DNA from: a virus
DNA length: 64,000 nt
Virus record (IMG/VR): IMGVR_UViG_3300002835_000025
Strand: one strand, 5' to 3'
In this document: piece by piece, positions 6,230 through 36,609 of the stretch
How the letters are laid out: each line of letters begins with the position of its first letter
Position numbering within the stretch: the stretch's first letter is position 1
The notes under the pieces: generated by a model
Told to the model about the DNA's origin: nothing
Seen by the model: the letters and a program-made list of their open reading frames with translations, nothing else
Databases searched by the model: none
Program-made: the position numbers and the translations under genes

Positions 6230-6919
6230 ATGAGTCAAGTATTCTATACAGGCTGCGTTGAGAACAGAATGGATCCACTTATGCTTGGTAGATGCCAAGT
6301 AAGGATTGTTGGATTACATACACATGATAAAGTTGAATTGCCAACGAAAGATTTACCATGGGCTCATCCTATGGGACCGATTACTAGTGCTTCAATGAAT
6401 GGCATTGGTTGGTCACCTACTGGAGTGGTTCAAGGTACTTGGGTCATTGTTATCTTTATGGATGAATTCAAACAGCAACCAATAATGATTGGTACTATTG
6501 GTGGCATTCCAATGACCAAATCAGCCGCATTGATTGCTGAAGTTACTAATGGTGTTGTATCGACCGACGAAGATGGTGATCTTATTAGTTCAACTGGTGA
6601 CATTGTTACTGATTTAGTATCTCAGATTGCTGACGAAATCAATGCCGATTCGGGTACTGAACAGAAACGTGGTGACAAATACCAAATAAAAGCTGTTACA
6701 GTTCAGACATCTAATGGTCCTGTTACTACTTATAATATTGTTAATATGGAAGATAGTACGATTATTGGCACTGCACTCATAAATGAGTATACTAATCTAT
6801 ATGAAGTCACTTTACTGAATCAAGAAAAATATACAGTAGAACAATATACTCCATTTGCATTACCGAAAGAATTTGATACTATAGATTCAATTTCTTCTTA
6901 TTTCGAAACTAATTTTTAG
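6230..6919 (+). CDS. gp5: gp5 N-terminal OB-fold part (central spike, first half of a split gene)
   Basis: GCVENRMDPLMLGRCQVRIVGLHT...LPTKDLPWA...GTWVIVIFMD...QQPIMIGTIGG is the gp5 OB domain. Confidence 0.88.
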   Translation: MSQVFYTGCVENRMDPLMLGRCQVRIVGLHTHDKVELPTKDLPWAHPMGPITSASMNGIGWSPTGVVQGTWVIVIFMDEFKQQPIMIGTIGGIPMTKSAALIAEVTNGVVSTDEDGDLISSTGDIVTDLVSQIADEINADSGTEQKRGDKYQIKAVTVQTSNGPVTTYNIVNMEDSTIIGTALINEYTNLYEVTLLNQEKYTVEQYTPFALPKEFDTIDSISSYFETNF

Positions 6920-6927
6920 GATACATT

Positions 6928-9762
6928 ATGGCAGATCCAATAGTAGATGCACCTATACCAGATACTCCGCCACCTGAAGCAAAACTGACTGGACACAAAG
7001 CCCAGATTGCTATGAAAGGTATTAAGGCAATCAAAGAACAAATGATTGCTGGAGGATTTACTTCAAAATATGCACAATGTGCTGTGTTGGCTATTGCTGG
7101 AGGTGAATCTGCATGGCAATGTATTGCTGAAGGATATCCACATAGTTATAAACTTTTGACTAGTGGTAAATTTTCAAATGTATCAGAAGCTGATGCACAG
7201 AAATATAGTAATGCAAAGAAGAATGGAATCTCAAAGGTTGAATATTTTGGATGGTTGTATGGTACTAGATTAAGAAAATCTGCTGCTGAAGGTAATTACT
7301 ACGGACGTGGTTATATTCAGTTGACATTTTCTGATGCTTATGATAAAATGTCAAAGCGTATTGGCGATCCAAATATTGACCTTTTAAAGAATCCAGAATT
7401 ACTTGAAGGTGAAAGTGATGAAGCAATTCTTACTAATGCAAAATATGTTGTAGCATTCCTCAAATGGAAAATGAAAGATTGGAAGACTGCCCAGCATAGT
7501 CCTGGATTTATGGAATATGCATTGAAAGCTGTTGGAGGACTTCAAGATAGATGGCCACTAAAAAGAAGATATAATGAATACTTTTTAGGTGGAAAACCTG
7601 CTCCTGCTCCGGCATCAGATAAAGATCCAGCTACATCTACAATTCAGAAAACTCCTAAAGAAATTGCTACTGCTCCTCCACATAAGAAAGAAGCATATAC
7701 TGAACCAAGAGATGAGAATTTTGATAAGAATGGATTTACAGATCCAGAAGGTAAGTATCCTTTAAGGGATTACATGAATGAGCCAGATACTAATCGTCTT
7801 GCTCGTGGAATTCTTAAAGGTACAAATATCGAATATAAAGACCAGACTAGACACAAATCGATACCAACTCCTAATGGAGGAAGTTACGAACAACCTAGAG
7901 CAGGATTTAGTTCCGTTTATCCTTACAATAAAGTGTTTGAATCTGAAAGTGGTCACGTTCTTGAATTTGATGATAGTCCTGCTGGTGAACGTGTAAACTT
8001 GTATCATAAGAAAGGCACATTTATTGAAATCGATGCTAATGGTACTCAAGTCAATCATATCATTGGCGATGGGTATTATATTGTAGAACATAATGGTAAC
8101 ATATTTGTTAATGGATGTTGTAATATTACAATCAATGGTAATACCAATCTGTTATGTGGTGGAGATGCTACCGTTGAAGTAAATGGTACCAGTGATATCA
8201 TTCTTCATAATGATGCTAATATTGGTGTTGCTAAAGACTTGAATATTGCTGTCGGTGGCGATATGAATGTTCTTGTTGAAGGTAACTATAATCTTGAAGT
8301 TGGCAAGACATTCAATACTCGTACTATTGGTACTATGTCACTCGAATCCAACGATGCATTAAAATTGAAGACTCAAAAGAATATCAGTATGGAAGGTGGA
8401 GATACTCAATCTACTGCTGAAACTCTTATGAAACTTTCAGGCGATATCAAAATAGAAACAGATGGTGCTTACCAAATTAAAGCCAAATCTATTCAATTCG
8501 AAACTACTGAAACTCTCAAATTAAATGCTGGTGGTCAATTAAGTGCTAAAGGAACAAAAATTAATCTTAATGATCCTGATGAAACGATACCAACATTGGA
8601 TAAATTAGGAACTCCTAAGAAACCAGTAGACTTTAAAGGTGATACTAAATCTAATACAGAAGAACATGTATTGGTTGATACGTCACTTAATCCAGCAGGA
8701 GAATTCAATCCTAATACTTTAAGTGAATCGGTAATGGATTCTGTTATTAATAAGTTACCATTGTCAGATGATATTAAAGGATTATTTGGTGGAACTACTC
8801 CAGATGTATATGATAAGAAATATGCTGATCAGCCAATCGAAACTAAAACGTCACTTCAAGCAGCAGGGGTTTCTAAAGGAAGATTGGTAGTTCCTCCAGT
8901 AGCAATACCAAATAATACAATATTGGATAATTTACCATCGCCCGATAGAATATCAGAAATGAGATATGACACCGAAGAAGATGCTGCTAGCGTAAAAGGT
9001 GCTAAAGCAATTGCTGCTAGAGATAGTACAGAAGAAGCAAAAGATGAATTAGCAAACAGAGAATCTTCTACTAATACTATTAAAGATGATGATGGTAATA
9101 TAGTTGATGCACCTTCTTTGTCTGGTGGATCAAGTTCATCTAAAGGATTATCGGCTGATAAGAAAGCAGAAATTGATGCTAAATCTGATTTCCCTATGAG
9201 TTACCCACTATCCAAACACTTTACTCTTGGAATGCTCATTAAGGATAAGAATGTTCTACGAGACCAAATGTTGCCTGGTGGTAAAAGTGAAAAAGCTGGA
9301 ACTCCTACTAGAATGTATACCAAACAGGAACTGGTGGCTAATTTAGCAGCATTGTGTGAAAACTGTTTAGAACCAATATATGATTTATTAGGACCGTGTA
9401 CTGATATGAGTAGTAATGGCACTTGGAAAATTAACTCTGGACTACGGAATCCTGGAAGTGTTGCTGGTTCAGGTGACGGTTCGGATCATAATAAAGGACG
9501 TGCTTGTGACTTCCAATTACATCCTAAAAGATCCATTACAGAAATGTACACCTTGGTAATGAAAATAGAAAAACTATTGCCATATAATCAATTGATATTT
9601 GAATATAGAAATGGTGGTGCTTCAAACTGGATTCATGTATCTTATTCAACTCAAGGCAATCAGAAACGAGCATTCACTATGATTAATGATAAACCAGTTA
9701 ATTCATCAGGACAACCTGCTTCTGGTTCAACTGGATTATTTAAGTTCTTTGCTAAGGATTAA
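6928..9762 (+). CDS. gp5: gp5 C-terminal part: GH19/lysozyme-like domain, beta-helix spike and C-terminal peptidase M15-like domain
   Basis: YYGRGYIQLT (GH19-like); YPYNKVFESESGHVLEFDDSPAGERVNLYHKKGTFIEID followed by VxG repeats; INSGLR...SDHNKGRACDF...QLIFEY...WIHVSY (M15). Confidence 0.85.
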   Translation: MADPIVDAPIPDTPPPEAKLTGHKAQIAMKGIKAIKEQMIAGGFTSKYAQCAVLAIAGGESAWQCIAEGYPHSYKLLTSGKFSNVSEADAQKYSNAKKNGISKVEYFGWLYGTRLRKSAAEGNYYGRGYIQLTFSDAYDKMSKRIGDPNIDLLKNPELLEGESDEAILTNAKYVVAFLKWKMKDWKTAQHSPGFMEYALKAVGGLQDRWPLKRRYNEYFLGGKPAPAPASDKDPATSTIQKTPKEIATAPPHKKEAYTEPRDENFDKNGFTDPEGKYPLRDYMNEPDTNRLARGILKGTNIEYKDQTRHKSIPTPNGGSYEQPRAGFSSVYPYNKVFESESGHVLEFDDSPAGERVNLYHKKGTFIEIDANGTQVNHIIGDGYYIVEHNGNIFVNGCCNITINGNTNLLCGGDATVEVNGTSDIILHNDANIGVAKDLNIAVGGDMNVLVEGNYNLEVGKTFNTRTIGTMSLESNDALKLKTQKNISMEGGDTQSTAETLMKLSGDIKIETDGAYQIKAKSIQFETTETLKLNAGGQLSAKGTKINLNDPDETIPTLDKLGTPKKPVDFKGDTKSNTEEHVLVDTSLNPAGEFNPNTLSESVMDSVINKLPLSDDIKGLFGGTTPDVYDKKYADQPIETKTSLQAAGVSKGRLVVPPVAIPNNTILDNLPSPDRISEMRYDTEEDAASVKGAKAIAARDSTEEAKDELANRESSTNTIKDDDGNIVDAPSLSGGSSSSKGLSADKKAEIDAKSDFPMSYPLSKHFTLGMLIKDKNVLRDQMLPGGKSEKAGTPTRMYTKQELVANLAALCENCLEPIYDLLGPCTDMSSNGTWKINSGLRNPGSVAGSGDGSDHNKGRACDFQLHPKRSITEMYTLVMKIEKLLPYNQLIFEYRNGGASNWIHVSYSTQGNQKRAFTMINDKPVNSSGQPASGSTGLFKFFAKD

Positions 9763-9873: not shown

Positions 9874-10182
9874 ATGTCAAGTAAAGGAATAGCACGAGGT
9901 TCAGGAAAAGATACTGTATCAACTGGTCATCAATGTGATGCTACAACCACAGCCAATCAATGTTCATCTGATGTTATAATCAATGGCAAAGGTGCATGTA
10001 GATTGGGAGATACTATAACTATTCATAATCATAAAGTTGGTGATAGTTGTGTTCCTCATACTGCTTCAATAACTTCAGCATCAAGTTCAGTATTTGTAAA
10101 TGGGATTGCTATTGCTAGAGACACCGATAGTGCTGATTCTGGTTCAATATCTTCAGGTTCAACAGACGTATTTGCAGGATAA
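9874..10182 (+). CDS. PAAR spike-tip protein (gp5.4-like)
   Basis: GH..C...SSDVIINGKGACRLGD...H...SSSVFVNGIAIAR; follows gp5. Confidence 0.85.
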   Translation: MSSKGIARGSGKDTVSTGHQCDATTTANQCSSDVIINGKGACRLGDTITIHNHKVGDSCVPHTASITSASSSVFVNGIAIARDTDSADSGSISSGSTDVFAG

Positions 10183-10185
10183 TAA

Positions 10186-10818
10186 ATGAAAAACACTCGC
10201 ACATTTTCAGACATAGATTTAAACTTCAATCCGGTAGCGTCGTCTCAAGATAGATACGATGTTGCTGTTGATACGGATTCCTTAATAACTTGTGAAGATA
10301 CTACACCAATCGTAATAGGTTCCAATACTCTATTTTCCTATATGATTAAACCCAATGATAATCTTTACATTAATGGATCATTCATTGGCAAAATCAAATC
10401 AATAGAATCTGATACTCAACTTACGCTCATTGCTAACAGTACTCAATCACTTCAAGTTTCTGGTACTCAATTGAAGTATTCTACTCCTGGTGATATAGCA
10501 TTACGATATGATGCTAATGCTATCAAAGGTTCCTTACGTAACTTGATTCTTACTATGAATCATGAAAGACCTTTCAATAGTAAACTAGGTTCTCAGGTAA
10601 AAGCATTAATGTTTGAACCTGCGGATCCAATTACTCATATCAAGTTAAAGCAGTCCATTATCAATACCGTGAATGCTTATGAACCTAGAGTTCAGTTGTT
10701 GGATGTAGTTGTCGATATGAAACCAGAATCCTATTCTGTAAATATTTCAATCATATTCCAGATAATAAATACAACAGAACCACTAAAAATAGATTTAGTT
10801 CTTAATCGAACACGATAA
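10186..10818 (+). CDS. gp25: baseplate wedge / sheath initiator with an ~85-aa insertion
   Basis: FSDIDLNF then, after the insertion, AIKGSLRNLILTMNHERPFNSKLGS...LMFEP...YEPRVQL. Confidence 0.85.
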   Translation: MKNTRTFSDIDLNFNPVASSQDRYDVAVDTDSLITCEDTTPIVIGSNTLFSYMIKPNDNLYINGSFIGKIKSIESDTQLTLIANSTQSLQVSGTQLKYSTPGDIALRYDANAIKGSLRNLILTMNHERPFNSKLGSQVKALMFEPADPITHIKLKQSIINTVNAYEPRVQLLDVVVDMKPESYSVNISIIFQIINTTEPLKIDLVLNRTR

Positions 10819-10833
10819 CCATAAGGAAGTGCC

Positions 10834-12639
10834 GTGGCCAATAACAAAATCACAACTCAAGATTTAGATTTTGATGGTATAAAATCCAATCTGAAAACCT
10901 TCTTTCAAGGTCAGACCGAACTATCAGATTATAACTTTGAGGGTTCTGGTCTTGCTTTGCTTCTGGACGTTCTAGCATATAATACTCATTATAATGCACT
11001 TTATACTAATCTTGCAGTCAATGAAGCGTTCTTAGATTCTGCTGTTAAAAGAAATAGTGTTGTATCAAAAGCATTTGAATTGGGTTATTTACCAAAATCA
11101 GCAACTTCTGCCAAATCTACAGTTAATATTACTGTATCTGGTGTTACTGGAAGTCCTGGATTATATTCACTTTCTGCTAATACGCCATTTACTACCAATG
11201 TGAATGGAACAACATATACATTCTACAATTTGGCACCTGCTGTTGCTCAGAATAATGGTGGCACTTACAAGTTTTCTAATGTCGTTTTGACTGAAGGTAT
11301 TCCATTAACTCAATCGTATATTGTATCGGATACCACAAGTTATATTATATCCAATCAGAACTGTGACATTTCTACTCTAACTGTGGACGTCTATGATAAT
11401 CCAAATTCAAGCGTAAAAACTAAATTCAGCCAAGTTGATGATATCATATCAGTTCAAGTAGATGAACCAGTATACTTCATTAAGGAAATTGAAGGTGGTA
11501 AGTATGAAATTCAATTTGGTAATGGACGAATTGGACGTGCTGTAAGTAACGGCAATATGATTGTAATGAACTACATGGTATCCAATAGAGCTAATGCTAA
11601 TGGTGCTAGAGTATTCAATACAACTGGTCTTGGTAGTAGTACAAACATTGTCACATTGACTACATCTAGTGGTGGTGGTGATGCTGAAACTATTGAAGAT
11701 ATTAAGTTCAATGCGCCACGTCTTTATAATGCTAACAATAGAGCAGTAACTTCCGAAGATTATCGTTCATTGCTTATTGCAAAGTTTCCAAATATCGATT
11801 CCATTAATGTGTGGGGAGGAGATGATAATATTCCTCCAGTTTATGGCAAAGTGTTTATTTCCATACTACCAAAATATAATGGAGTCTTGACTACTGCTGA
11901 AAAAGATATTATCAAGAATGATATCCTGAAATCAAGAAAAACTGTAACGATTGTTCCTGAATTTGTCGAACCATTCTATCTGAATATCAAACTCAATACT
12001 ACAGTATACTACAATTCAGATACAACTTCAAAATCTGCTTATGATATTTCGGTTGCTGCTACTAATGCTATATTGGATTACAACAATACTAATTTGAAGA
12101 AATTCGATTCAATCTTTAGATACTCAAAACTAATGGCTGCTATTGATGGTGCTGATATCGCTATCAACAGTAACATATCGACTTTGGTTATTGATAGAAC
12201 ATTACCAGTAAAGTTTAATGTTACTACAAACTATTTGTTTCATATTGATAATCCTGTCTATAGTTCAGGAGTTCCTGAGGATGCAGTAACCTCAAATGGA
12301 TTCTATGTTTTTGGTGATAATACGAATATTCAGTACTTGAAAGATGATGGATACGGAATTATTCAGAGATACTATATTGATCCAATCACATTATTGCCAG
12401 TCTTTACTAATACTAATCAAGGTACTATAAACTATTCGACTGGTTCATTATCGCTGACTGCATTGCATGTTACTAGATTTGCAAGTACTGAATTGATTAT
12501 TTCCTTTAAAATGCAATCCAACGATATCTTGTCAGTTAGGGACCATATTGTTAGAATTGAACCTGCATCGTTAACAGTAACATCAATTCCAGAATCTGGT
12601 AGTTCTGGTTTAACTCACACCTTTACTGCAAGTAGATAA
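10834..12639 (+). CDS. gp6: baseplate wedge subunit
   Basis: LDFDGIKSNLKTF...DYNFEGSGL..LLDVLAYNTHYNA...NEAFLDSA...NRAVTSEDY...PPVYGKVFIS. Confidence 0.92.
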   Translation: MANNKITTQDLDFDGIKSNLKTFFQGQTELSDYNFEGSGLALLLDVLAYNTHYNALYTNLAVNEAFLDSAVKRNSVVSKAFELGYLPKSATSAKSTVNITVSGVTGSPGLYSLSANTPFTTNVNGTTYTFYNLAPAVAQNNGGTYKFSNVVLTEGIPLTQSYIVSDTTSYIISNQNCDISTLTVDVYDNPNSSVKTKFSQVDDIISVQVDEPVYFIKEIEGGKYEIQFGNGRIGRAVSNGNMIVMNYMVSNRANANGARVFNTTGLGSSTNIVTLTTSSGGGDAETIEDIKFNAPRLYNANNRAVTSEDYRSLLIAKFPNIDSINVWGGDDNIPPVYGKVFISILPKYNGVLTTAEKDIIKNDILKSRKTVTIVPEFVEPFYLNIKLNTTVYYNSDTTSKSAYDISVAATNAILDYNNTNLKKFDSIFRYSKLMAAIDGADIAINSNISTLVIDRTLPVKFNVTTNYLFHIDNPVYSSGVPEDAVTSNGFYVFGDNTNIQYLKDDGYGIIQRYYIDPITLLPVFTNTNQGTINYSTGSLSLTALHVTRFASTELIISFKMQSNDILSVRDHIVRIEPASLTVTSIPESGSSGLTHTFTASR

Positions 12640-12641
12640 AG

Positions 12642-14459
12642 ATGACTTATAAAATACCAGCTGTTTCTGTTATTTTAAACCAGTTTCCTGAGTTTACAAG
12701 GGAAGACTATCCGGCGTTCATTAAATTTGTAGAATTATACTACAAACACCTTAACGACACTCAGGTTGCTGGTATTGGACAAAGTTTCGATTCCATAAGA
12801 GATGTTGATACTACTCTTGATAAGTTTATTGATGAACTATGGAAAGAATATGGTATCAATTTACCAAGAACCAATAGTGTCAATGATCGGTACTTTCTAA
12901 AGCATATCAAGGAATTCTATTCTGCTAAAGGTAGTGAAGAATCTTTCAGAATGCTATTCCGTCATCTGTATAATACAGAGATTGAAATCAAGTATCCAAA
13001 AGAACAGATACTGAAAACTTCGGACGGCACATGGACACAGGATATTTCTGTTCTAGTGAATGTTACTTCTGGTGACATTTTCAGTATCATTGACCAACAA
13101 ATAACTGTTTTTACTAATCAACAAACTATCAAAGTAGTTGCTAATAGAGTGCGATTACTTGATGATGGTCATTATGAAGTATTTCTTGATAAATTCCAAA
13201 GAGATTTAATATCAATTGGAAGTATTCTAGTAATGAATGATATTAGTGCTACTGTGGTAGAAACTATATCGAAGATTACAGTATATAAAGCAGGTGCTGG
13301 GTTTTTTCTAGGACAAATTTTTGTTCTGCCTTCTGTGTCTGGTACTAATGCAAGGGTTAAAGTTACTAAGGTTGGACCAATTGGAGAGTTATTAGAAATC
13401 CAAATATTAGATTTCGGATCTGGTTACGTATCCGATTTTAATACAACTGTAGTGTCAGGATCAACTCCATCGATGATAGTAACTGGTCAACTTTCATCAC
13501 AGACATTAGGGTTTATTGATAGTGGATTCATATCATCTAATTTCTATTCAGAATTGGATTATACTACAGGTTCATATTCTGGCGAAACTATAAGAGAATT
13601 TTATACTAGAATAGACGTACCCGAAGGTACCACAGTAGATGATAGTAAGGTAGCTGTGTTGTTAATTGAAATTGGTTCCATTAGAAGATATCCAGGTTTC
13701 TATTCAAATAGTTCTGGATTCTTATCAGATGCATACTATCTTCAAGATGGTTATTATTATCAAGACTTCTCGTACGTGATTTCTTGTGTAGAATCTATCA
13801 ATACTTATAGAAATATCATAAAGTCACTTTTACATCCATCTGGGATGAAATTATTTGGCAATCAGATATTTAAAAATGAGTTTGACGTTAGAAGTGTAGT
13901 AGAAATTGCTTATCTATATTTCCAATTTGCAATAACCGATTCTATTGAATCTGTAGATAATTATAAATATAGTTTAAATAAACCAATTACGGAATTTCTT
14001 ACAATATCAGATATTGGTGATTATGCTAGATATACTACAATTAATAAATCTATTTCTGATACATTATCATTATCTGAAACAGAAACACTTGGATTAAGTA
14101 AACCGTTAGTCGATTCTGTAAGCATAACTGGTGAAACAGAAATATTAGATTTTAGTAAAAATCTAACAGAAACCACTACATTATCAGAAACAGAAACACT
14201 TGGATTAAGTAAAAACTTAACAGACACATTTATATTATCAGAAACAGAAACACTTGGATTAAGTAAAAACTTAACAGACACATTTACATTATCAGAATCT
14301 GAATTATTAGATTTCAGTAAAAACTTAACAGACACATTTACATTTTTGGTAATCTATTATTGGGATACTTTATATGCTGATATTGAGTATATAGATAGTA
14401 ATATTGAACCAATAATTTCTAAAGCCGGATCAATTTATTCTATATCATTAACAAACTAA
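12642..14459 (+). CDS. baseplate wedge initiator (gp7-like) with C-terminal 18-aa repeats
   Basis: QFPEFTREDYPAFIKFVELYY...KHIKEFYSAKGSEESFRMLFR...LQDGYYYQDFSYVI...LLHPSGMKLFG; lies between gp6 and gp8. Confidence 0.7.
   Translation: MTYKIPAVSVILNQFPEFTREDYPAFIKFVELYYKHLNDTQVAGIGQSFDSIRDVDTTLDKFIDELWKEYGINLPRTNSVNDRYFLKHIKEFYSAKGSEESFRMLFRHLYNTEIEIKYPKEQILKTSDGTWTQDISVLVNVTSGDIFSIIDQQITVFTNQQTIKVVANRVRLLDDGHYEVFLDKFQRDLISIGSILVMNDISATVVETISKITVYKAGAGFFLGQIFVLPSVSGTNARVKVTKVGPIGELLEIQILDFGSGYVSDFNTTVVSGSTPSMIVTGQLSSQTLGFIDSGFISSNFYSELDYTTGSYSGETIREFYTRIDVPEGTTVDDSKVAVLLIEIGSIRRYPGFYSNSSGFLSDAYYLQDGYYYQDFSYVISCVESINTYRNIIKSLLHPSGMKLFGNQIFKNEFDVRSVVEIAYLYFQFAITDSIESVDNYKYSLNKPITEFLTISDIGDYARYTTINKSISDTLSLSETETLGLSKPLVDSVSITGETEILDFSKNLTETTTLSETETLGLSKNLTDTFILSETETLGLSKNLTDTFTLSESELLDFSKNLTDTFTFLVIYYWDTLYADIEYIDSNIEPIISKAGSIYSISLTN
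13930..14345 (+). repeat. 54-bp (18-aa) tandem repeat encoding SETETLGLSKNLTDTFxL-like units
   Basis: Near-identical units start at 14181, 14235 and 14289; more degenerate units lie upstream (about 7-8 in total). Confidence 0.9.
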
Positions 14460-14469
14460 AGGAACTATA

Positions 14470-14916
14470 ATGCTTACTCAAGAAAATATATCGATGAAAG
14501 GTGAATTAACTATTGACAGATTTGATGTTAATGGTCAACTTATTGAACAGAAAAAAATTCCTAATCTAATCGTATCATCAGGTAAAAACTTGATGATTTC
14601 GAGATTATTAGGAACTACAGATGGGGTAATGACCCACATGGGCGTTGGTACCGGTGTTACTAGTCCAGTTATTGGAAATACTGCATTAGAAACACCATTG
14701 AGTGCTAGAATTGCATTAACTTCTGCCATACAATCTACCAATACAGTAACTTATGTTGGCACATTTGGAGCTGGTGTTTCTACTGGTGCGATTACTGAAG
14801 CTGGTATATTCAATGCACTTACTTCAGGTACTATGCTATGTCGTACTACATTCCCAGTAGTTAATAAAGCAGCAGGTGACTCAATTGTAATTACTTGGGT
14901 AATAACACTTTCTTAA
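14470..14916 (+). CDS. 148-aa beta-rich virion structural protein
   Basis: AAGGA RBS; THMGVGTG...TALET...GTFGAGVSTGAITEAGIFNA...TMLCRTTFPVVNK..GDSIVITWVIT, a pattern common in phage structural modules. Confidence 0.7.
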   Translation: MLTQENISMKGELTIDRFDVNGQLIEQKKIPNLIVSSGKNLMISRLLGTTDGVMTHMGVGTGVTSPVIGNTALETPLSARIALTSAIQSTNTVTYVGTFGAGVSTGAITEAGIFNALTSGTMLCRTTFPVVNKAAGDSIVITWVITLS

Positions 14917-14929: not shown

Positions 14930-16951
14930 ATGACAGCAGCAATTTGCCCACTAATGCACAATACTATAGCAGATTCTATCTATAGTAGTGTAGTATCTAA
15001 ATCGTCTAAGTATTATTATTTCTTGGGTAAAACTGTGCCGTATACTCTAGTCAACGGAGTTGAACAAGTAGAAACTCCGTTGACTTCTTATAAATATGAA
15101 TTGGCCACAAGACGTGATATAATTTCTCTTAAACAAATTACTAATAACGATGTTAGTTATGTAGTACCTAGAATTGATTGGATACAAAATACTATCTACG
15201 ACCACTATGATGATTCATATACAGTAGATAATCCAGCACAGTCGGGTTCTACTAGTATTAATGATGCTCAATTTTATGTACTAACATCAACATATAATCT
15301 TTATATGTGCTTGGATAATAACTACGATTCTCCATCTACAATCATGCCAACTGGATATGACGTGCTTCCATTTACTACAGACGATGGATATAAATGGAAA
15401 TTCATGATGAATATACCATTAGCATTAAGATCTAAGTTCTTGACTGACCTACATATACCATTAACAAATGCGGTAAATACTATTTTCTATAATAATGGTG
15501 CAATTGACACCGTAACTATAGATTCTGCTGGGTCGGGTTATCCATCCAATACAACTGCATCGATTACTATAACTAGTCCGGAAATATCAAACGGTTCTTT
15601 TGTAGTTGGACAGACATATATCATTACCAATTTAGGAACAGCAACCTCACTTCAAGCAAAATGGAATATTGCAGCAGGAACTTCTAGTGTGACGTATGCA
15701 GTTGGCTCAGTATTTACGGCAGCTACTACTGGTTCTAATTTGACTGCTGCAAAAATCAAAGGAACTGGTGCAATATTAAAACCCTATATTTCTACTGTAG
15801 ATGGTTCCATAGCTTCTGTTAAGATTACTAATGGCGGAACTGGTTACCCTTCAGGTACTACACTTACAGTTTTAGGAGTGGGTACTGGCAAATTTACCGG
15901 TAATAATACTGCATTGCTTACTCCAGCAATCGTTAATGGTGTTATTACTCATGTGATAATAACTGATCCTGGTAAAAATTACAATAACAATGCAACCAAT
16001 CTTACGATACAAAGTGATACTGGAATAGATGCTCATATTTCTGCTATAGTAGAATCTGGACAGATTGTTGATGTAATTATTGATAATCCTGGATATGGTT
16101 ATAAAGATGCTAAAATTACAGCAATTGGTACTGGAGGATCTGGTGCTAAATTGACTGCTATAGTAACTGGAGGTCAACTTGATACTATCCAAGCCAATGT
16201 TGAATTATTAGCAGTAGATGGTTCTATTGATTATATTAAGGTAATTGACGGTGGATATGGATATGCTAGCATTAATGTAACTATTACTGGTGATGGAACT
16301 GGAGCTACTGCTACCGCTAATATTACGAACGGTATAGTAACTTCAATTAACATAGTAACTAGAGGATTTGGTTATACTTATGCTGAGGTTAATCTGACAC
16401 CAACTGGTGGTATCAATTCAACTCCTCCTACAGCAAGAGCTATTATTTCACCAAAATACGGACACGGAAATAATGCTTTATCTGAATTATTTGCTAGTAC
16501 TTTAATGTTCTATTCTACTATAGCACAGGATAATAGTACTGGTTTTACTATGAATAATGACTATCGTCAATTTGGCATCATCAAGAATCCAACTCAAAAT
16601 GATTCTACTCAATTGTTTTATGACAAACATGGAATTGCTTGCTATTCAGTAAATGCTACTATATCTAATGGCACAGTTGTCGAGGATATGATTCTTACGG
16701 ATGTTGATGGTAATAGATATATTATAATAGCAAAAAGTTCTACTAGTTTATTATTACAGCCAAGAGACAATTCTACTTTGTTAATCGGTTCAACTTTAGT
16801 TAATGGTAATATTTCTGTATACATTTCTCTTATTAACTACGAACCAAATGTTGACAAATACAGCGGTGACTTGTTGTATATTGATAATAGATCAGCATTT
16901 TATCAAACAATAGACCAATCAGTAACATTGCAAACTATCCTAAAATTTTAA
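14930..16951 (+). CDS. gp8: baseplate wedge subunit with inserted beta-repeat domains
   Basis: SYVVPRIDW...YDHYDD...FYVLTSTYNLYMCLDN...DDGYKWKFM...DYRQFGIIKNP...YSGDLLYIDNR; repeated GxGY motifs. Confidence 0.8.
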   Translation: MTAAICPLMHNTIADSIYSSVVSKSSKYYYFLGKTVPYTLVNGVEQVETPLTSYKYELATRRDIISLKQITNNDVSYVVPRIDWIQNTIYDHYDDSYTVDNPAQSGSTSINDAQFYVLTSTYNLYMCLDNNYDSPSTIMPTGYDVLPFTTDDGYKWKFMMNIPLALRSKFLTDLHIPLTNAVNTIFYNNGAIDTVTIDSAGSGYPSNTTASITITSPEISNGSFVVGQTYIITNLGTATSLQAKWNIAAGTSSVTYAVGSVFTAATTGSNLTAAKIKGTGAILKPYISTVDGSIASVKITNGGTGYPSGTTLTVLGVGTGKFTGNNTALLTPAIVNGVITHVIITDPGKNYNNNATNLTIQSDTGIDAHISAIVESGQIVDVIIDNPGYGYKDAKITAIGTGGSGAKLTAIVTGGQLDTIQANVELLAVDGSIDYIKVIDGGYGYASINVTITGDGTGATATANITNGIVTSINIVTRGFGYTYAEVNLTPTGGINSTPPTARAIISPKYGHGNNALSELFASTLMFYSTIAQDNSTGFTMNNDYRQFGIIKNPTQNDSTQLFYDKHGIACYSVNATISNGTVVEDMILTDVDGNRYIIIAKSSTSLLLQPRDNSTLLIGSTLVNGNISVYISLINYEPNVDKYSGDLLYIDNRSAFYQTIDQSVTLQTILKF

Positions 16952-16992: not shown

Positions 16993-19900
16993 ATGCTTAA
17001 TTTCTCGGCCGCTCCCTACTATGATGATTTCGATGAGACCAAACATTTTCATAAGATCTTGTTCAAACCTGGTTATGCGGTTCAAGCAAGAGAATTAACT
17101 CAGCTTCAGACTATTATCCAAAACCAGATTGAACGATTTGGTAATTGGGCTTTTACCGATGGATACAAAGTTCACGGTGGTGATACTTCTCTCCTAACCG
17201 CTAATTCTATTCCCATCAATTCATTTACAGGAACTTCAGATTTAAGTTTCTTTAAAGACAAGATTGTCTATATTGGTAGCATTAGAAAAGAAGTAGTTCA
17301 TACGGAAACCATAAACGGTATTGATTATATCTTTACTGTAGATAAAACTAATGGTGCTATTGTAGAAAATTCGACGCTATTGGTTGAAGGATATTCTACA
17401 TACTCATTGACGGTTGAATCTTCTACAGTAACTACAATTTATGGTCAATCATTATTGTATAGATTACTCCCTAGTATATACTATGTAAGTGGAGTATTTG
17501 CAAAAGCTGAAGATCAGATTATAGTAGTTTCATTATCCAATATAAAAGTTTCATCTGACATATATTTGGTTGCTAATGAATATATCATAACTTCTAACGA
17601 TGATGAATCTTTATTAGATAACGCTTATGGTTCACCAAACTATGCTGCTCCTGGTGCTGATAGACATTCAATGGAATTGATTCTTCAGACAACACTATCA
17701 AGTTCTGGATTGACTACCAATAGCAAACATTTTCTATTAAATAAACTTGTAGATGGTGTCATAGTATCTTCACCAAATAAACCAGAAACATCTGATTTTG
17801 AAAATCTTATTGCTGAAAGAACATATAATGAATCTGGAGATTATACAGTAATCCCATTCATTGGTCAAGTTTATGATGATCTTACAGATACTACAAAAGC
17901 AACTTTCAAATTAGATGCTGGTACTGCTTACATAAAAGGATTTGAAGTTAAAAAAGAAGCACAAACTTCCTTATCAATTGATAAAGCAAGAACTACTGCA
18001 TTCCTTAATAATAGTCAAGTAACTATAGATAAAGGTCCTTATATTGTAGTAGAAAATCTTACTGGATTAATATTCCCATATTCTATGTTGACTGTGGATA
18101 TCCATAGTTCGACAACAGTATCTACAAGTTCAGCCACATATAACAATACTAAAATTGGTACTGCTACTGTATTTGGTACGACATTTGATAGTTTGAATTC
18201 TGGAACTACTAATGCTTACAAATTATTCATTACTAATATAGCGATGAATACTGGTAAAACTATTAGTGGTGCTCGTTCGTTTATTATCAAAACTGGTTCT
18301 GGTACATATACTTGGACATTTAAAGCAGATTACAGTACAGAAACTTATGACAAGTTAGATATTCTTGGTGCTACTGTTACTGATGTTACTGTATTCAATT
18401 CACAGAATTATACCCAACTATTTCCGTTATTGAATAAGCCAGTAAAAACTCACGTTAATCCCTTAACTAGCACTACTGATATTTCTTACCAATACTATAA
18501 GGAATTTCTAAGTACGACTTTTTCAAGATCTTCTGGCAGTACAGTTGGTTCATTTACACTAAGTGGAAATCAGTTCTTTATTGGTAGTGGAATCGTACCA
18601 TCAACTACAGTAGCTACGCAGTGGTATGCTGTTGTTAAGACAGTTGGAAGTGGTACAGGTACTGCGCCGACAGTTGGGACTATAATCAAATTAGAATCAG
18701 GTACTGTTAATATTGCTAGCAATACTTCTGCAACTGTAACACTACCAGTGGATTATAACTTGACGCTGGATGTATTTACTATTATTGGCGAATCTGTAGC
18801 TAATAACAGAAACAAAGTTAAGAATACCAATGCTACTTTAACTGTAACTGGAGAATCATTAACTGCATCTACAATTTCATTATTGAAGGCCGATGGTTAT
18901 AGATTGGTAAGTGTTATCGATGATATGTCAATAGACCATACTTCAAAATATGAATTCTATACTGGTCAGAAAGATGCTTATTATGACCATGCTTATATCA
19001 AATTAGTAAATGATAGAGTTACTCCAAAATCTAGCAATCCTAGAATAACATCTTTGACCATAACATTTGATTATTTTAGTCATACCGGAACAGGACCGCT
19101 TACAGTTGATTCTTATACTGGAGTACTTGAATATGAAACAATTCCAGTTTATAGAACTCAAAGTGGTGACATATTAAGACTTTCGGATACTCTTGACTTC
19201 AGACCTAGAAGAACAGATGGTTCTACTACATTGCTATTCGATTCGTATAAGAAACCAAACTTTGGTAGCTACTTATCAACTGACTATGAATATTATCTAC
19301 CTCGTATCGATAGAGTAGCAATCTTATCTTCATCAAGAGACTTTGCTGTAATAAAAGGCATTCCTTCTAAGTATCCATTAGTACCAGATGCTGGTGATGC
19401 TATGACGTTATACACTTTAACAATTCCAGCATACACATTTGACTATAAAGATATTGTTGCTGAATACGTTGATAATAAACGCTATACCATGAAGGACATA
19501 GCAAAGATTGATAAGCGTGTAAATAGACTTGAATATTATGCTACATTATCATTATTAGAAAAACAAGCAACAGACGAAGCAATTCCTTCAGATGTTCCTG
19601 GTATTGATAAATTTAAAAATGGTATTTTGGTTGATCCATTTGCTGGTCATAGTGTTGGTGATGTATTCAGTCCTTATTATAATTGTGCCATTGATTTCGT
19701 TCAAAGAGTATTAAGACCGGCTTACGTTAAAGACACATTTGATTATGTGGTAGATGAGTCTGGAAATTCTTCAGTACTGATTTCGAATAACCATGCAGTA
19801 CTTGAATATTCTGAAGTTCCAGTTATTACTCAAGCAGAAGCATCTGAATACGAGTCAGTCCAACCATTCAATTCATTCAATTGGAATGGTGTAATGGATA

Positions 19901-20097
19901 TGGATCCTCCAACAGATATCTGGGTTGATACTACATCTGCAGCAACTTCAGTAGTTAACTTGAATGGTGAATTTGACCACATTACTGGCGGTAATGGTCA
20001 GGTTTGGTCTGACTGGCAAACCACTGGTGTTGGTATTACTGCAATATCATTGAATACTAAAGTAGATGTTCAATCACAAGTATCTGTCGTTAAATAA
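16993..20097 (+). CDS. large virion protein, DUF4815/VrlC-like, N-terminal part
   Basis: APYYDDFD...FHKILFKPGYAVQARELTQLQTI...APGADR...ERTYNESGDY...LDFRPR...YYLPRID...NKRYTMKDI...FKNGILVDPF. Confidence 0.8.
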   Translation: MLNFSAAPYYDDFDETKHFHKILFKPGYAVQARELTQLQTIIQNQIERFGNWAFTDGYKVHGGDTSLLTANSIPINSFTGTSDLSFFKDKIVYIGSIRKEVVHTETINGIDYIFTVDKTNGAIVENSTLLVEGYSTYSLTVESSTVTTIYGQSLLYRLLPSIYYVSGVFAKAEDQIIVVSLSNIKVSSDIYLVANEYIITSNDDESLLDNAYGSPNYAAPGADRHSMELILQTTLSSSGLTTNSKHFLLNKLVDGVIVSSPNKPETSDFENLIAERTYNESGDYTVIPFIGQVYDDLTDTTKATFKLDAGTAYIKGFEVKKEAQTSLSIDKARTTAFLNNSQVTIDKGPYIVVENLTGLIFPYSMLTVDIHSSTTVSTSSATYNNTKIGTATVFGTTFDSLNSGTTNAYKLFITNIAMNTGKTISGARSFIIKTGSGTYTWTFKADYSTETYDKLDILGATVTDVTVFNSQNYTQLFPLLNKPVKTHVNPLTSTTDISYQYYKEFLSTTFSRSSGSTVGSFTLSGNQFFIGSGIVPSTTVATQWYAVVKTVGSGTGTAPTVGTIIKLESGTVNIASNTSATVTLPVDYNLTLDVFTIIGESVANNRNKVKNTNATLTVTGESLTASTISLLKADGYRLVSVIDDMSIDHTSKYEFYTGQKDAYYDHAYIKLVNDRVTPKSSNPRITSLTITFDYFSHTGTGPLTVDSYTGVLEYETIPVYRTQSGDILRLSDTLDFRPRRTDGSTTLLFDSYKKPNFGSYLSTDYEYYLPRIDRVAILSSSRDFAVIKGIPSKYPLVPDAGDAMTLYTLTIPAYTFDYKDIVAEYVDNKRYTMKDIAKIDKRVNRLEYYATLSLLEKQATDEAIPSDVPGIDKFKNGILVDPFAGHSVGDVFSPYYNCAIDFVQRVLRPAYVKDTFDYVVDESGNSSVLISNNHAVLEYSEVPVITQAEASEYESVQPFNSFNWNGVMDMDPPTDIWVDTTSAATSVVNLNGEFDHITGGNGQVWSDWQTTGVGITAISLNTKVDVQSQVSVVK

Positions 20098-29400: not shown

Positions 29401-29621
29401 TCTTGGTAAAAGCTACCTCAACTACTGGTGACTGGTTAGTGGCCGATACTGCTAGAGGAATCGTATCTGGAAATGATCCAAGATTATCTCTTAATTCAAC
29501 AGCGGCTGAAGTTACCGATGAAGATTGGTTAGATCCTTATGCGCCTGGATTTACGGTAAACCAAACAACTGCTTCAGCAAATGCTTCTGGAGTATCCTAC
29601 ATCTTCTTAGCAATTTCTTAG
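26406..29621 (+). CDS. fibre-tip / receptor-binding protein with a beta-propeller-like insert
   Basis: FSTYLYTGNG, FFDVVTWTGN...IAHNLGVAPGMIIVKRTD and YIAYLFA repeats; repeated KLxSSGxxxWS blades at aa ~50-410. Confidence 0.7.
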   Translation: MFTLAANRSDEEGQLYSDDVFSTYLYTGNGSTQTINNGISLASTTGFSSQVVSTTGSANISCSAIYGSDTYLGGYVIESTYGRPFIVKVSGGSVVWSKTIREVDFGPHDYVGTTSIKVDSTGVYVCGGTVSSSTWYTFVCKFDLSGTLLWQTYIKTNNPNYPATRSKLTIDESNQVYVASTAGDAEGSGYVQITKLTSSGVQSWSKKLDRYTTMDVNIAYDSLTSSIIVSTTSSDGVTNATIIIKIASSDGTLAWSKLIYYTLQNFDPGTTRVKNILIDSSSNIILQILATSMNSNNSQASHIIKLNSSGATVFGRAGYNSLRSASYKYYTSCLDSSDNIYVSSYNYTENGLNYIFKLNSSGTLIWSRTLDHTGTDAVIGMVISGNNLIITCYDEVKNTTEIITLDKDNPRDSATTSVGTIGLTTGNWVDSTAYGAIANYVTDGSTTYGAASAIVVGTANLTINNPVGTLSTTAAINYSAINSSGGMVWCKSRTDTRYHSLNDTIRGTGSSLASNAVDAAAVNSANGMYAYNSNGFTANVDPDTNGTGRNYASWTFRKAAKFFDVVTWTGNAANRTIAHNLGVAPGMIIVKRTDSTSNWSVYHRQLGVEQGYEGKDFHIWLNLTNAADGISDYWNRTAPTTNTFSIGANAQVNTNGATYIAYLFADDTSSTGIIQCGSFTADSIGNASVNLGWEPQYLMFKNASGIGGWQMRDTMRGFFVKPNTSSKGLAANSSNAEGGEGDMCLTNTGFSTEGSGGLSPSKTYIYMAIRRPNKPPTTGTQVYATDTSGSSSPTPPTYKGNFPVDLGFYKRTTSVTPWYVSNRLCGKSQLKFNTTEAEAASNDATFDFQNGFGGSTLTSSIDRGWMFKRAPGFMDVVCYTGTGVARTVAHNLTVAPELIIQKNRSAADAWEVASAYLPNPNQDVVRLNTTGAVLSTGVDYIYNRTATSVTFSSYLANSGSNYVAYLFATLAGISKVGSYTGNGTSQNIECAFAAGARFVLVKATSTTGDWLVADTARGIVSGNDPRLSLNSTAAEVTDEDWLDPYAPGFTVNQTTASANASGVSYIFLAIS

Positions 29622-29629
29622 GAAACAAA

Positions 29630-30109
29630 ATGGAAATTATCTTTACAAAAACACTACAAGTGGTTTCTGAACAGGAATTCAGAAACCTTAATGCTAACAC
29701 TAGTTTCCCTCCAATCATTACTGAAGATATCCTAGCAGATTTTGGTGCTTCTCCAGTTTTTGAAGGTGAACAAGCTACTACGACTACGCCTTATCAATAT
29801 TCGTTCCGTAATGGTGTTAAAGAGGTAAATGGAAAATATTTTACAAATTATGTTCTAGGACCAGTCTTTACTGATAATGAAAACCAAACTGCTATTGAAC
29901 AAGAAACTGAATACAAAGCACGAATTGATACCCAACAAGGTACTTCTGTAAGAAACACAAGAAACCAGTTATTGAAGGATACTGATTGGACTCAAGTATT
30001 GGATGCTCCAGTTGATAAAGATGCTTGGTCGATATATAGACAAGAATTAAGGGATATCACTAGCCAAGAAGGATTTCCTTTTACTATAGTTTGGCCAACT
30101 CAACCATAA
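29630..30109 (+). CDS. tail fibre assembly chaperone-like protein (start re-called at ATG 29630)
   Basis: VRNTRNQLLKDTDWTQVLDAP...WSIYRQELRDITSQEGFPFTIVWPTQP. Confidence 0.8.
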   Translation: MEIIFTKTLQVVSEQEFRNLNANTSFPPIITEDILADFGASPVFEGEQATTTTPYQYSFRNGVKEVNGKYFTNYVLGPVFTDNENQTAIEQETEYKARIDTQQGTSVRNTRNQLLKDTDWTQVLDAPVDKDAWSIYRQELRDITSQEGFPFTIVWPTQP

Positions 30110-31517: not shown

Positions 31518-31862
31518 ATGAGTCATTTTGCAAAAGTAGAAAATGGAATCGTCACGCAAGTAATTGTTGCAGAGCAAATCGTGATTGATTCTAAACTATT
31601 TGGTGACGGTTGGATTCAAACATCATACAACACTCACGGTGGAAAGCATCCAAATAATACACCACTACGAAAAAATTATGCAGGTGTTGGGTATATATAC
31701 AATGAGGGGTTAGATGCTTTTTATGCACCGCAACCTTATTTATCTTGGACGTTAGATATAGAATCTTGTTTATGGCAATCACCTGTACCTTATCCACAAG
31801 ACGGTAAAATCTATTACTGGGATGAACCGTCTGTATCTTGGGTTGAGCAAACGGTACAATAA
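31518..31862 (+). CDS. fibre-associated small protein
   Basis: MSHFAKV...WIQTSYNT...LRKNYAGVGY...WQSPVPYP; follows the Gly-rich gene. Confidence 0.7.
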   Translation: MSHFAKVENGIVTQVIVAEQIVIDSKLFGDGWIQTSYNTHGGKHPNNTPLRKNYAGVGYIYNEGLDAFYAPQPYLSWTLDIESCLWQSPVPYPQDGKIYYWDEPSVSWVEQTVQ

Positions 31863-31863
31863 C

Positions 31864-35823: not shown

Positions 35824-35831
35824 TATAAATA
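35824..35831 (+). promoter_or_regulatory. late promoter TATAAATA
   Basis: Exact consensus upstream of the gene run starting at 35868. Confidence 0.75.
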
Positions 35832-35867: not shown

Positions 35868-36062
35868 ATGAGTTTAATTTTTACAACTAAAGGCGACCTT
35901 GAAGAATCTTTATTGGTCAAAACAGAAGGATCTGATGAATCTGAAAATGAAATTTCAAATTGGACTGAATATCATTTAGATGATGAACTTGTCAGACGTG
36001 ATGTTCATTTAATACTTAAACAACCCGCAGCATTTACAGATACCGTAATAGGAGAATTTTAA
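35868..36062 (+). CDS. small acidic hypothetical protein
   Basis: GAGGA RBS before ATG 35868; LIFTTKGDLEESLLVKTEG...WTEYHLDDELVRRDVH; stop overlaps the next start. Confidence 0.7.
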   Translation: MSLIFTTKGDLEESLLVKTEGSDESENEISNWTEYHLDDELVRRDVHLILKQPAAFTDTVIGEF

Positions 36063-36520: not shown

Positions 36521-36609
36521 TAAATAATAATGTCTCTTATATTATTATAGGTAATTACACCATGATATAAGATGTTAGTTAACTACTTTCAAAGGATGAA
36601 GACAAGTTA

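What the first reader, a model, noticed from the sequence alone, without database searches (positions are those of the whole stretch)
13930..14916. Second, miniature repeat-plus-subunit cassette on the baseplate (gp7-like 18-aa repeats next to a 148-aa protein)
Seen: the gp7-like protein ends in about 7-8 units of 18 aa (54-bp period, the last ones nearly identical and so recently expanded), then an aromatic/acidic motif. The next gene, between gp7 and gp8, is a 148-aa beta-rich protein. This repeats the layout of the neck cassette with unrelated repeat and subunit sequences. No gp9, gp10, gp11 or gp12 is recognisable in the window. Inference: a short extension arm on each wedge, whose length can be tuned by repeat copy number.
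Basis: partly seen in the sequence, partly recalled or inferred. Interest (0 to 1): 0.72.

Follow-up and report, generated by a model that had tools for sequence, protein, structure and literature searches.

The report
Bead-on-rope arm on phage baseplate
An uncultured freshwater T4-like phage ends one of its baseplate proteins in seven short tandem repeats and encodes a small protein right behind it, and together they most likely build six beaded side-arms of a kind recently solved in a few other phages, so this is a good new example, not a new principle.

Summary
The gp7-like wedge protein (12642-14459, 605 aa) ends in seven units of about 18 aa. Units 5 and 6 are 53/54 identical in DNA. An aromatic/acidic end follows, then a 148-aa beta-rich gene (14470-14916).

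The 148-aa protein has the fold of the "bead" or "arm segment" proteins: phage 812 arm segment Z 8.9, GP4 fibre I Z 6.5, A511 gp105. 25 of 34 family members hit Pfam Gp80 weakly. The N-terminus is a true T4 gp7 homologue (E 8.7e-10). The gene order scaffold then bead matches phage 812 (gp117, gp118) and podophage A1002 (gp39, gp40).

In all 79 IMG/VR loci that hold an upstream gene, the bead gene directly follows a protein gene. About 17 of these are not gp7-type. 48 of 61 distinct tails of these proteins are clearly periodic. Close relatives carry 4, 7 or 10 units.

Best reading (about 0.6): the repeats are a rope on which bead dimers dock by beta-sheet augmentation, giving a length-tunable arm on each wedge. 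Binding itself is not shown.

This is a new member of a known kind. The same scan noted a second, unrelated rope-and-bead pair at the neck of this genome, and a gp7 rope in another T4-like phage.

The parts
10834..12639 (+). gp6-like baseplate wedge gene (context: partner of gp7 in the wedge core)
   Evidence: Pfam Gp6-like_1st E 2.9e-20; phrog_219 E 5.5e-156
12642..14459 (+). gp7-like wedge protein acting as arm scaffold (605 aa): N-terminal wedge part, beta domains, C-terminal rope
   Evidence: Pfam Baseplate_wedge PF23786 E 1.2e-13; phrog_17744 E 6.3e-51. A family profile hits T4 gp7 5hx2_A aa 661-759 at E 8.7e-10. AF2 model: residues 130-270 confident, tail 430-605 low.
13953..14345 (+). 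rope: seven tandem units of about 18 aa (consensus roughly S-E-x-E-T-L-x-F-S-K-x-L-T-D-T-F-T-L), proposed docking sites for bead dimers
   Evidence: units 5/6 are 53/54 identical in DNA
14346..14456 (+). terminal aromatic/acidic stretch (about 37 aa) that closes the rope
   Evidence: Read directly. Y60, W61, Y65 and Y70 of the last 92 aa are invariant in 8 close relatives. A different but analogous Y/F-acidic end occurs in most other rope proteins.
14460..14463 (+). AGGA ribosome-binding site of the bead gene, 6 nt before its ATG
   Evidence: sequence read
14470..14916 (+). 148-aa bead / arm-segment-like protein
   Evidence: phrog_5417 E 2.1e-29 and Pfam Gp80 E 0.0061, below cut-off. AF2 pLDDT 85.1, pTM 0.80. 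VIA-align Z 12.0 HFTV1 hub domain, 8.9 phage 812 arm segment, 6.5 GP4 fibre I. Foldseek A511 gp105.
14930..16951 (+). baseplate wedge protein in the gp8 position (context)
   Evidence: phrog_438 E 5.5e-96. No PDB sequence hit at E<=0.1, so 'gp8' is by position and PHROG name only.

Best explanation
The gp7-like wedge protein doubles as an arm scaffold. Its N-terminal part sits in the wedge core with two gp6-like chains, as T4 gp7 does. Its last roughly 170 residues leave the wedge as an extended rope of seven ~18-aa units. Each unit offers two short beta-strands with one hydrophobic face.

Dimers of the 148-aa protein dock along this rope by adding the rope strands to their own C-terminal sheets (beta-sheet augmentation). 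The result is a beaded arm or short chain-like fibre on each of the six wedges. With one dimer per unit that is up to 14 beads per wedge and 84 per virion. With A1002-like packing (about 27 A per dimer, my arithmetic) the arm would be roughly 19 nm long. Gain or loss of 54-bp units changes arm length. The aromatic/acidic end probably caps the rope or ties it to a neighbour.

Shown: the repeats, the fold, the gp7 homology, the linkage and the copy-number differences. Inferred: binding, stoichiometry, length and the role of the terminal stretch.
For: (1) Fold. The model of the 148-aa protein (pLDDT 85.1) matches the phage 812 arm segment (9euf_b, Z 8.9, 111 aligned), GP4 fibre I (8jou_a, Z 6.5, 18% id) and the HFTV1 hub domain (Z 12.0). 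Foldseek also finds A511 gp105 and the 812 arm segment. 25 of 34 family members hit Pfam Gp80 at E<=0.01, best 7e-5.

(2) Scaffold. The gp7-like profile hits T4 gp7 at E 8.7e-10. In phage 812 the arm scaffold's N-terminal 176 aa is the gp7 equivalent, and its linkers fill the gaps between arm-segment dimers to make continuous sheets (passages, PMC13433997).

(3) Gene order. Scaffold then bead matches 812 gp117/gp118 and A1002 gp39/gp40.

(4) Linkage. All 79 of 80 loci that hold an upstream ORF have the bead gene directly behind it. 35 of 79 of these ORFs have chains of 3 or more K-anchored units, against 0 of 517 other ORFs. 48 of 61 distinct tails are periodic at z>=5, against 15 of 104 controls. 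About 17 of the 79 are not gp7-type but podo- or sipho-like contexts. Isolated phages BcepGomr, ART, phiA008 and EBPR siphovirus 1 show the same pair.

(5) The tail has no confident fold of its own (pLDDT 28-54 over 430-605) but shows short periodic strands.

(6) The invariant residues of the bead cluster in its last three strands. That is the part that touches the scaffold in phage 812.

(7) Unit number is 4 in L002, L004, L005, L007 and L009, 7 in the window and L001, and 10 in L008.
Against: No direct or predicted contact between rope and bead was obtained.

The window protein scores only 17.3 bits on Pfam Gp80, below the 27-bit cut-off. hhalign of the family against GP4 gp80 gives only E 0.013 over 31 columns. 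GP4 fibre I at Z 6.5 lies in the range the tool calls common.

The unit profile of the window's clade finds 2 or more units in only 2 of 70 non-training upstream proteins. Unit sequences therefore diverge fast, and cross-clade sameness rests on a loose motif and on periodicity. 15 of 104 control tails are also periodic.

In Synechococcus phage BUCT-ZZ01 the bead homologue follows a gp5-like gene without a rope. Its gp7-like protein, which has eight 18-aa units, is followed by an unrelated 132-aa protein. Adjacency is thus not universal.
Confidence: 0.6

Rival explanations
1. The repeat tail folds by itself (or as part of the wedge) into a beta-solenoid or fibrous stalk. The 148-aa protein is a single-site gp8-like wedge or adaptor protein that binds once, for example at the aromatic/acidic end, not on every unit.
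For: The same fold is the N-terminal attachment domain of many tail-fibre proteins: 13 of 34 family members hit PF12571, and BFVD matches include 'tail fiber' and 'tail collar fiber' proteins. The AF2 monomer places short strands in every unit. LSH1 authors saw a poor beta-helix prediction for a comparable tail (section 16 read, PMC13243795).
Against: Tail pLDDT is 28-54, so there is no confident self-fold. Solved relatives use one dimer per docking stretch. Unit number varies from 4 to 10 while the bead stays 62-91% identical.
Confidence: 0.2
2. The repeats are only a flexible spacer or a fast-evolving low-complexity tail with no partner. The 148-aa protein is an independent receptor-binding or decoration protein that happens to be encoded next to it.
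For: No binding is shown. Unit sequences diverge quickly between clades. BUCT-ZZ01 separates the two genes.
Against: The bead gene sits behind a protein with a periodic tail in gp7, siphovirus and podovirus-like contexts. Chains of 3 or more units occur in 35 of 79 upstream ORFs and in 0 of 517 others. The anchoring lysine and the alternating hydrophobic pattern are kept in all 44 units of the clade.
Confidence: 0.12
3. The 148-aa protein is a non-structural assembly chaperone for the gp7 tail or the neighbouring wedge protein.
For: It is small and sits directly downstream of its putative client, as tail-fibre chaperones do.
Against: Its fold matches virion components (812 arm segment, GP4 fibre I, A511 gp105, HFTV1 hub), not the chaperone family. 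A recognisable tail-fibre chaperone is encoded elsewhere in the window (29525-30109, PF16778 E 3.8e-20).
Confidence: 0.06

Closest known systems
Baseplate arm of Staphylococcus phage 812 (arm scaffold gp117 + arm segment gp118) and A511 gp105
   Same: The scaffold's N-terminus is the gp7 equivalent of the wedge. The bead gene lies directly downstream. The bead fold matches (Z 8.9 to 9euf_b; Foldseek 6hhk, 9fko). Scaffold strands join neighbouring dimers into continuous sheets (passages read, PMC13433997).
   Different: The 812 scaffold has irregular linkers, bulge and elbow domains and docking loops for tripods and receptor-binding proteins. Here the tail is a plain array of seven near-regular 18-aa units plus a 37-aa end, and no globular domain is seen in it. 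In sequence the bead is nearer to Pfam Gp80 than to gp118. The host phage is a Gram-negative-type aquatic T4-like phage.
Chain-like fibres of podophages GP4 (gp80 dimers on a rope protein, PDB 8JOU), VP1 and A1002 (gp40/gp41 dimers on nozzle-rope gp39)
   Same: Small ~140-170-aa beads form dimers that dock in tandem on an extended rope by sheet augmentation. The rope gene lies next to the bead gene in A1002. Bead fold Z 6.5 to 8jou_a, with weak Pfam Gp80 hits. A1002 uses about 24 rope residues per dimer, by my arithmetic.
   Different: The anchor here is a contractile-tail wedge protein, not a nozzle or an adaptor collar. The rope is at the C-terminus. The units are clear tandem DNA repeats with a copy-number difference between relatives. 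The GP4 paper itself is not in the library; its content is known to me only through PMC13730344 and PMC13243795.
T4 gp7 / gp8
   Same: The core region is homologous to T4 gp7 aa 661-759 (E 8.7e-10). The gene order gp6, gp7, then a dimeric small wedge partner is the same. The 812 paper states that the arm-segment fold resembles T4 gp8.
   Different: T4 gp7 is 1032 aa with many globular domains and no repeat rope. No T4 gp8 chain appeared in my fold or sequence hit lists.
Haloferax tailed virus 1 baseplate hub (PDB 9h4p chain BD)
   Same: This is the best structural and only sequence-profile match of the bead (Z 12.0; Foldseek E 1.2e-6; profile E 0.0039 with two tandem matches).
   Different: There the domain is built in tandem into one 953-aa chain, not a free bead on a rope.
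Goslar / PhiKZ baseplate spokes (gp35 = gp7 equivalent contacting gp32 dimers that form a filament)
   Same: A gp7 equivalent reaches outward to a filament of gp8-like dimers (passages read, PMC13742148).
   Different: The Goslar filament is described as an end-to-end assembly of dimers, without a repeat rope threading it.

Membership tests
Phage 812 / A511-type baseplate arm (arm scaffold + arm segment) | Scaffold N-terminus is the gp7-equivalent member of the wedge heterotrimer | tested here: met
   Profile of 21 relatives hits T4 gp7 5hx2_A at E 8.7e-10 and KP1 gp7 at 3.1e-6; Pfam Baseplate_wedge E 1.2e-13
Phage 812 / A511-type baseplate arm (arm scaffold + arm segment) | Small partner has the arm-segment / gp105 fold | tested here: met
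   VIA-align Z 8.9, rmsd 3.4, 111 aligned to 9euf_b; Foldseek 6hhk_A E 0.015 TM 0.56 and 9fko_A E 0.021
Phage 812 / A511-type baseplate arm (arm scaffold + arm segment) | Scaffold carries globular domains and docking loops for tripod and receptor-binding proteins | tested here: not met
   The tail after aa ~430 is only seven units plus 37 aa. No domain family was hit there.
Phage 812 / A511-type baseplate arm (arm scaffold + arm segment) | Scaffold strands complete sheets between neighbouring bead dimers | tested here: inconclusive
   One complex job gave no verdict. No other tool here can show contacts.
GP4 gp80-type chain-like fibre (Pfam PF23140 Gp80 beads on a rope) | Bead passes the curated Pfam Gp80 cut-off | tested here: not met
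   17.3 bits against a cut-off of 27, E 0.0061. 25 of 34 relatives match at E<=0.01, best 7e-5. hhalign against GP4 gp80: E 0.013 over 31 columns.
GP4 gp80-type chain-like fibre (Pfam PF23140 Gp80 beads on a rope) | Bead has the gp80 fold | tested here: inconclusive
   Z 6.5, rmsd 3.6, 106 aligned, 18% id to 8jou_a. This ranks fourth of 48,161 chains but is below the Z 8 that the tool advises trusting.
GP4 gp80-type chain-like fibre (Pfam PF23140 Gp80 beads on a rope) | Extended rope with several tandem docking stretches, encoded beside the bead | tested here: met
   Seven units directly upstream of the bead gene; the same layout is found in 79 of 79 related loci that hold an upstream ORF
GP4 gp80-type chain-like fibre (Pfam PF23140 Gp80 beads on a rope) | Beads form homodimers | tested here: inconclusive
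   The only complex job (4 copies plus tail) returned no verdict
T4 gp7 | Full-length multi-domain gp7 architecture (about 1030 aa) | tested here: not met
   The protein is 605 aa, and only aa 23-113 align to T4 gp7 aa 661-759

The most novel reading that the evidence does not exclude
Rope-plus-bead is a portable, length-programmable appendage kit. Tailed phages of all three morphotypes bolt it onto different anchors: a gp7 wedge here, a post-tape-measure protein in BcepGomr and ART, a side-fibre module, and podovirus-like tails. This one virion would carry two mutually orthogonal rope/bead codes (18-aa units with the 148-aa bead on the baseplate; ~20-aa units with a 152-aa bead at the neck). 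That makes the recognition code between a docking unit and its bead directly testable, with 54-bp unit gain and loss as a fast route to changing reach.
Probability: 0.4. Interest if true: 0.6.

Novelty: new member of a known kind. Interest (0 to 1): 0.42.

Why it matters
Chain-like fibres and beaded baseplate arms have been solved in only a handful of cultured phages between 2023 and 2026. This locus suggests the same building principle is common in uncultured aquatic T4-like phages: 551 bead relatives in IMG/VR.

Here the docking sites are clean tandem repeats whose number differs between relatives. One genome may also hold two non-cross-reacting versions. That gives a simple system for working out how a bead recognises its docking peptide, and how arm length affects adsorption.

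It also explains 'unpredictable' repetitive tails noted by others, such as LSH1 gp34 (PMC13243795, section 16).

Tried and rejected
Complex prediction. Four copies of the 148-aa protein plus the last 92 aa of the gp7-like protein scored 0.00 against a mark of 0.32, returned as 'no answer'. It counts neither for nor against binding.

Copy number in reads. The four runs laid are Logan contigs that simply break inside the repeat. No indel or joint was reported. A 53-nt piece at 14180-14232 has depth 16.8 and 18.1 against flanks of about 6-7.6, as expected for a sequence present twice in the window. No within-population variation could be shown or excluded.

Sequence searches of PDB. The bead alone gave only chance hits (Hsp90, E 0.036). 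The repeat tail gave nothing below E 0.26. The protein in the gp8 position gave nothing. NCBIfam gave nothing for four proteins.

Narrow unit profiles. A profile from five window units found only 3 ORFs. A 44-unit profile found 2 or more units in only 2 of 70 non-training upstream proteins.

Terminal-motif profile. It hit 61 of 79 upstream ORFs and 0 of 2057 others, but it was trained on 40 of those tails. It misses the window's own clade, and it did not reach E<=1e-3 on BcepGomr gp17 or ART gp126.

An internal late promoter for the bead gene. TATAAATA lies at 13962-13969, but the window holds 12 copies against 13.1 expected.

Relatedness of the two beads. hhalign of the 148-aa family against the 152-aa neck protein gave probability 0.25%.

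The BUCT-ZZ01 132-aa protein behind its gp7 rope is not related to the bead family.

GP4 rope. The protein upstream of gp80 in GP4 is not repetitive. The one downstream (325 aa) is glycine-rich with a rough ~20-aa period. I could not confirm from any paper I could read which GP4 protein is the rope.

No whole genome is held for this window.
Full report
WHAT IS THERE

The window is the structural module of a T4-like myovirus with about 34% G+C. No whole genome is held for it. Near-identical DNA sits in 24 freshwater or lake-water metagenome runs, 11 of them with half or more of the sampled words and five flagged as possible sources.

Around the finding the genes run as follows:
- gp5-like hub, 6928-9762
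- PAAR, 9874-10182
- gp25, 10186-10818
- gp6-like, 10834-12639
- gp7-like, 12642-14459
- a 148-aa gene, 14470-14916
- a wedge protein in the gp8 position, 14930-16951 (phrog_438)
- a DUF4815 protein, 16993-20097

None of the 28 ORFs I scanned hit a family named gp9, gp10, gp11 or gp12.

THE REPEAT

Tandem Repeats Finder reports a 54-bp period at 14133-14344 (3.9 copies, 86% matches). At protein level there are seven lysine-anchored units, starting at nt 13953 and ending at 14345, with spacings of 22, 18, 19, 18, 18 and 18 aa.

Units 5 and 6 differ at one base in 54. Unit 7 is 80-81% identical to them. Units 1 and 2 are old and degenerate.

A profile of 44 units from eight related proteins finds exactly these seven units. 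It finds nothing convincing in any other window ORF, including the 3207-aa neck protein.

Each unit has hydrophobic residues at alternating positions in two short stretches either side of the S/N-K turn (read). This is the pattern of two edge strands.

The protein then ends in a 37-aa aromatic/acidic stretch. Its Y, W, Y, Y positions are invariant in eight close relatives.

THE TWO PROTEINS

The gp7-like assignment is sound:
- Pfam Baseplate_wedge, E 1.2e-13.
- A profile of 21 relatives hits T4 gp7 (5hx2_A, aa 661-759) at E 8.7e-10.

Its AlphaFold2 model is confident only in the middle beta domains. The tail (aa 430-605) has pLDDT 28-54, with short, regularly spaced strands.

The 148-aa protein models well (pLDDT 85.1, pTM 0.80; eight strands and one helix). 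An all-against-representatives structural search ranks these chains highest:

| Rank | Chain | Z |
|---|---|---|
| 1 | Haloferax tailed virus 1 hub domain | 12.0 |
| 2 | phage 812 arm segment protein | 8.9 |
| 3 | a T4-like gp7 (KP1) | 7.1 |
| 4 | GP4 fibre I | 6.5 (18% identity) |

Foldseek adds A511 gp105 and the 812 'arm segment' entry.

In sequence the link is weak:
- Pfam Gp80 scores 17.3 bits for the window protein, below the cut-off of 27.
- 25 of 34 relatives match Gp80 at E<=0.01, and 13 of 34 match the N-terminal domain of tail-collar fibre proteins.
- hhalign against GP4 gp80 itself gives E 0.013.

In predicted viral structures the fold is common: 79 matches at E<=0.001, both as free ~150-aa proteins and as the N-terminus of tail fibres.

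WHAT THE LITERATURE SAYS

Two solved architectures fit.

(a) Phage 812 (EMBO J 2026, PMC13433997; passages read). Each baseplate arm is an arm scaffold protein, gp117, whose first 176 residues are the gp7 equivalent in the wedge. Six dimers of arm segment protein gp118 reinforce it. Scaffold linkers fill the gaps between dimers and make continuous seven-stranded sheets. The segment fold is said to resemble T4 gp8 and A511 gp105.

(b) Podophage chain-like fibres (PLoS Biol Nov 2026, PMC13730344; abstract, section 11 and passages read).
- GP4 strings five gp80 dimers on a separately encoded rope.
- A1002 strings eleven gp40/gp41 dimers on the fibre-dock domain of nozzle-rope gp39, each by sheet augmentation.
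- That rope is about 300 A long and about 268 residues. By my arithmetic this is roughly 24 residues and 27 A per dimer.

Goslar's gp7 equivalent also reaches out to a filament of gp8-like dimers (PMC13742148, passages). The A-1(L) neck fibre is a different thing, made of head-to-tail trimers (PMC10966104, passages).

COMPARATIVE EVIDENCE

IMG/VR holds 551 relatives of the bead, and the best 80 loci were kept. In 79 of them an ORF of at least 100 aa ends within a few bases of the bead gene. The 80th locus starts at the bead gene.

An automatic rule of these upstream proteins gp7-type and 18 not. By eye, two of the 18 (L042, L062) are gp7-type genes cut by a contig end. One of the 61 (L079) is not gp7-type. 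The corrected split is about 62 and 17.

The non-gp7 loci look like podovirus-type modules (major head protein, two structural proteins, rope protein, bead, large fibre). One is a lambda-like side-fibre module.

Tests of the tails:
- Chains of three or more K-anchored units occur in 35 of 79 upstream ORFs and in 0 of 517 other ORFs of 100 aa or more.
- A motif-free autocorrelation test finds periodicity at z>=5 in 48 of 61 distinct tails. The lags are near 18-21 or 31-41 aa.
- The same test finds periodicity in 15 of 104 control tails, mostly the Ig-repeat proteins downstream.

Four isolated phages show the same pair:
- BcepGomr gp17/gp18 and Achromobacter phage ART 126/127, both just after the tape measure.
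- Aeromonas phage phiA008 0064/0063.
- EBPR siphovirus 1 gp36/gp37.

One does not. In Synechococcus phage BUCT-ZZ01 the bead homologue follows a gp5-like gene with no rope. Its gp7-like protein has eight 18-aa units and is followed by an unrelated 132-aa protein.

Among the window's closest relatives the otherwise collinear gp7-like proteins carry different unit numbers:
- 4 units in L002, L004, L005, L007 and L009
- 7 units in the window and L001
- 10 units in L008

MECHANISM

The best reading is that the tail is a rope and the 148-aa protein its bead. Dimers dock on successive units by sheet augmentation and form one beaded arm per wedge.

The bead's invariant residues lie in its last three strands. 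That is the region that meets the scaffold in phage 812.

One dimer per unit, 14 beads per wedge and an arm of about 19 nm are inferences from A1002 numbers, not results.

I put this reading at about 0.6. The rivals are:
- a self-folding tail with a single-site adaptor (0.2)
- a partnerless spacer beside an independent protein (0.12)
- a chaperone (0.06)

WHAT WENT AGAINST OR NOWHERE

The single complex job gave no verdict and is not evidence either way.

Sequence membership in Pfam Gp80 fails the curated cut-off. Unit sequences do not generalise beyond the clade: 2 of 70.

The read-laying used contigs that break in the repeat and cannot show copy-number variants. The GP4 paper is not in the library, so I could not check its rope.

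RELATION TO EARLIER NOTES OF THIS SCAN

After reaching the GP4/A1002 reading I looked up earlier notes.
- One describes the neck pair of this same window, a 3207-aa rope with a 152-aa bead (e1-5877887).
- Another describes a bead-on-rope kit in another T4-like phage whose tag also recurs in its gp7 (e1-5728068).

I confirmed only that the two pairs here are unrelated in sequence.

VERDICT

It is a new member of a known kind, of moderate interest. The main open point is direct proof of binding and stoichiometry.

Noticed in passing
window 35824-35831 and 36062-46233: The neck rope-and-bead pair noted earlier by the scan has a TATAAATA (T4 late-promoter consensus, recalled) 231 nt upstream of its 152-aa bead gene. 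The baseplate bead gene has no such motif directly upstream.
   Followed up: partly
window 13962-13969: A TATAAATA lies inside unit 1 of the rope, 501 nt upstream of the bead gene. It could give the bead extra late transcription. However, the motif count in the window (12) is at chance level (13.1 expected).
   Followed up: partly
window 6230-9762: The gp5-like hub seems split. A 229-aa gene carries the gp5 OB domain (E 3.3e-20). A 944-aa gene follows with a GH19-like/endolysin N-terminus, the gp5 beta-helix region and a second endolysin-like C-terminus (phrog_181, phrog_894).
   Followed up: no
L085:3980-6205 (Synechococcus phage BUCT-ZZ01): A cultured Kyanoviridae phage has a gp7-like protein with eight 18-aa units of a different sequence type. 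An unrelated 132-aa gene lies behind it, and its bead homologue lies about 39 kb away behind gp5. It is a possible cultured model for testing the rope idea.
   Followed up: partly
L089:7948-8925 (Ralstonia phage GP4): The 325-aa protein encoded just downstream of gp80 is glycine-rich with a rough ~20-aa periodicity. It may be the GP4 rope. I could not check this against the GP4 paper.
   Followed up: no
literature: Alishewanella phage LSH1 gp34-gp35 (PMC13243795, section 16): The authors report an unpredictable, possibly repetitive C-terminal domain in gp34, followed by a GP4-like dimeric gp35. They could not model a complex. The layout matches rope then bead, which they do not propose.
   Followed up: no
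BFVD matches of model m6e464129d810: The bead fold also matches uncharacterised proteins of archaeal filamentous viruses (Betalipothrixvirus, SIFV, AFV1) and haloarchaeal tailed viruses at E 1e-10 to 1e-4.
   Followed up: no
window 31822-32577: A class 3 lipase / esterase gene (Pfam Lipase_3, E 7.1e-29) sits inside the tail-fibre region.
   Followed up: no
window 14180-14232: In two lake metagenome runs the 53-nt piece shared by units 5 and 6 has 2.2-3.1 times the depth of its flanks. About 2 is expected for the window's own sequence. The higher value in one run could hint at an extra unit there, but contigs cannot tell.
   Followed up: partly
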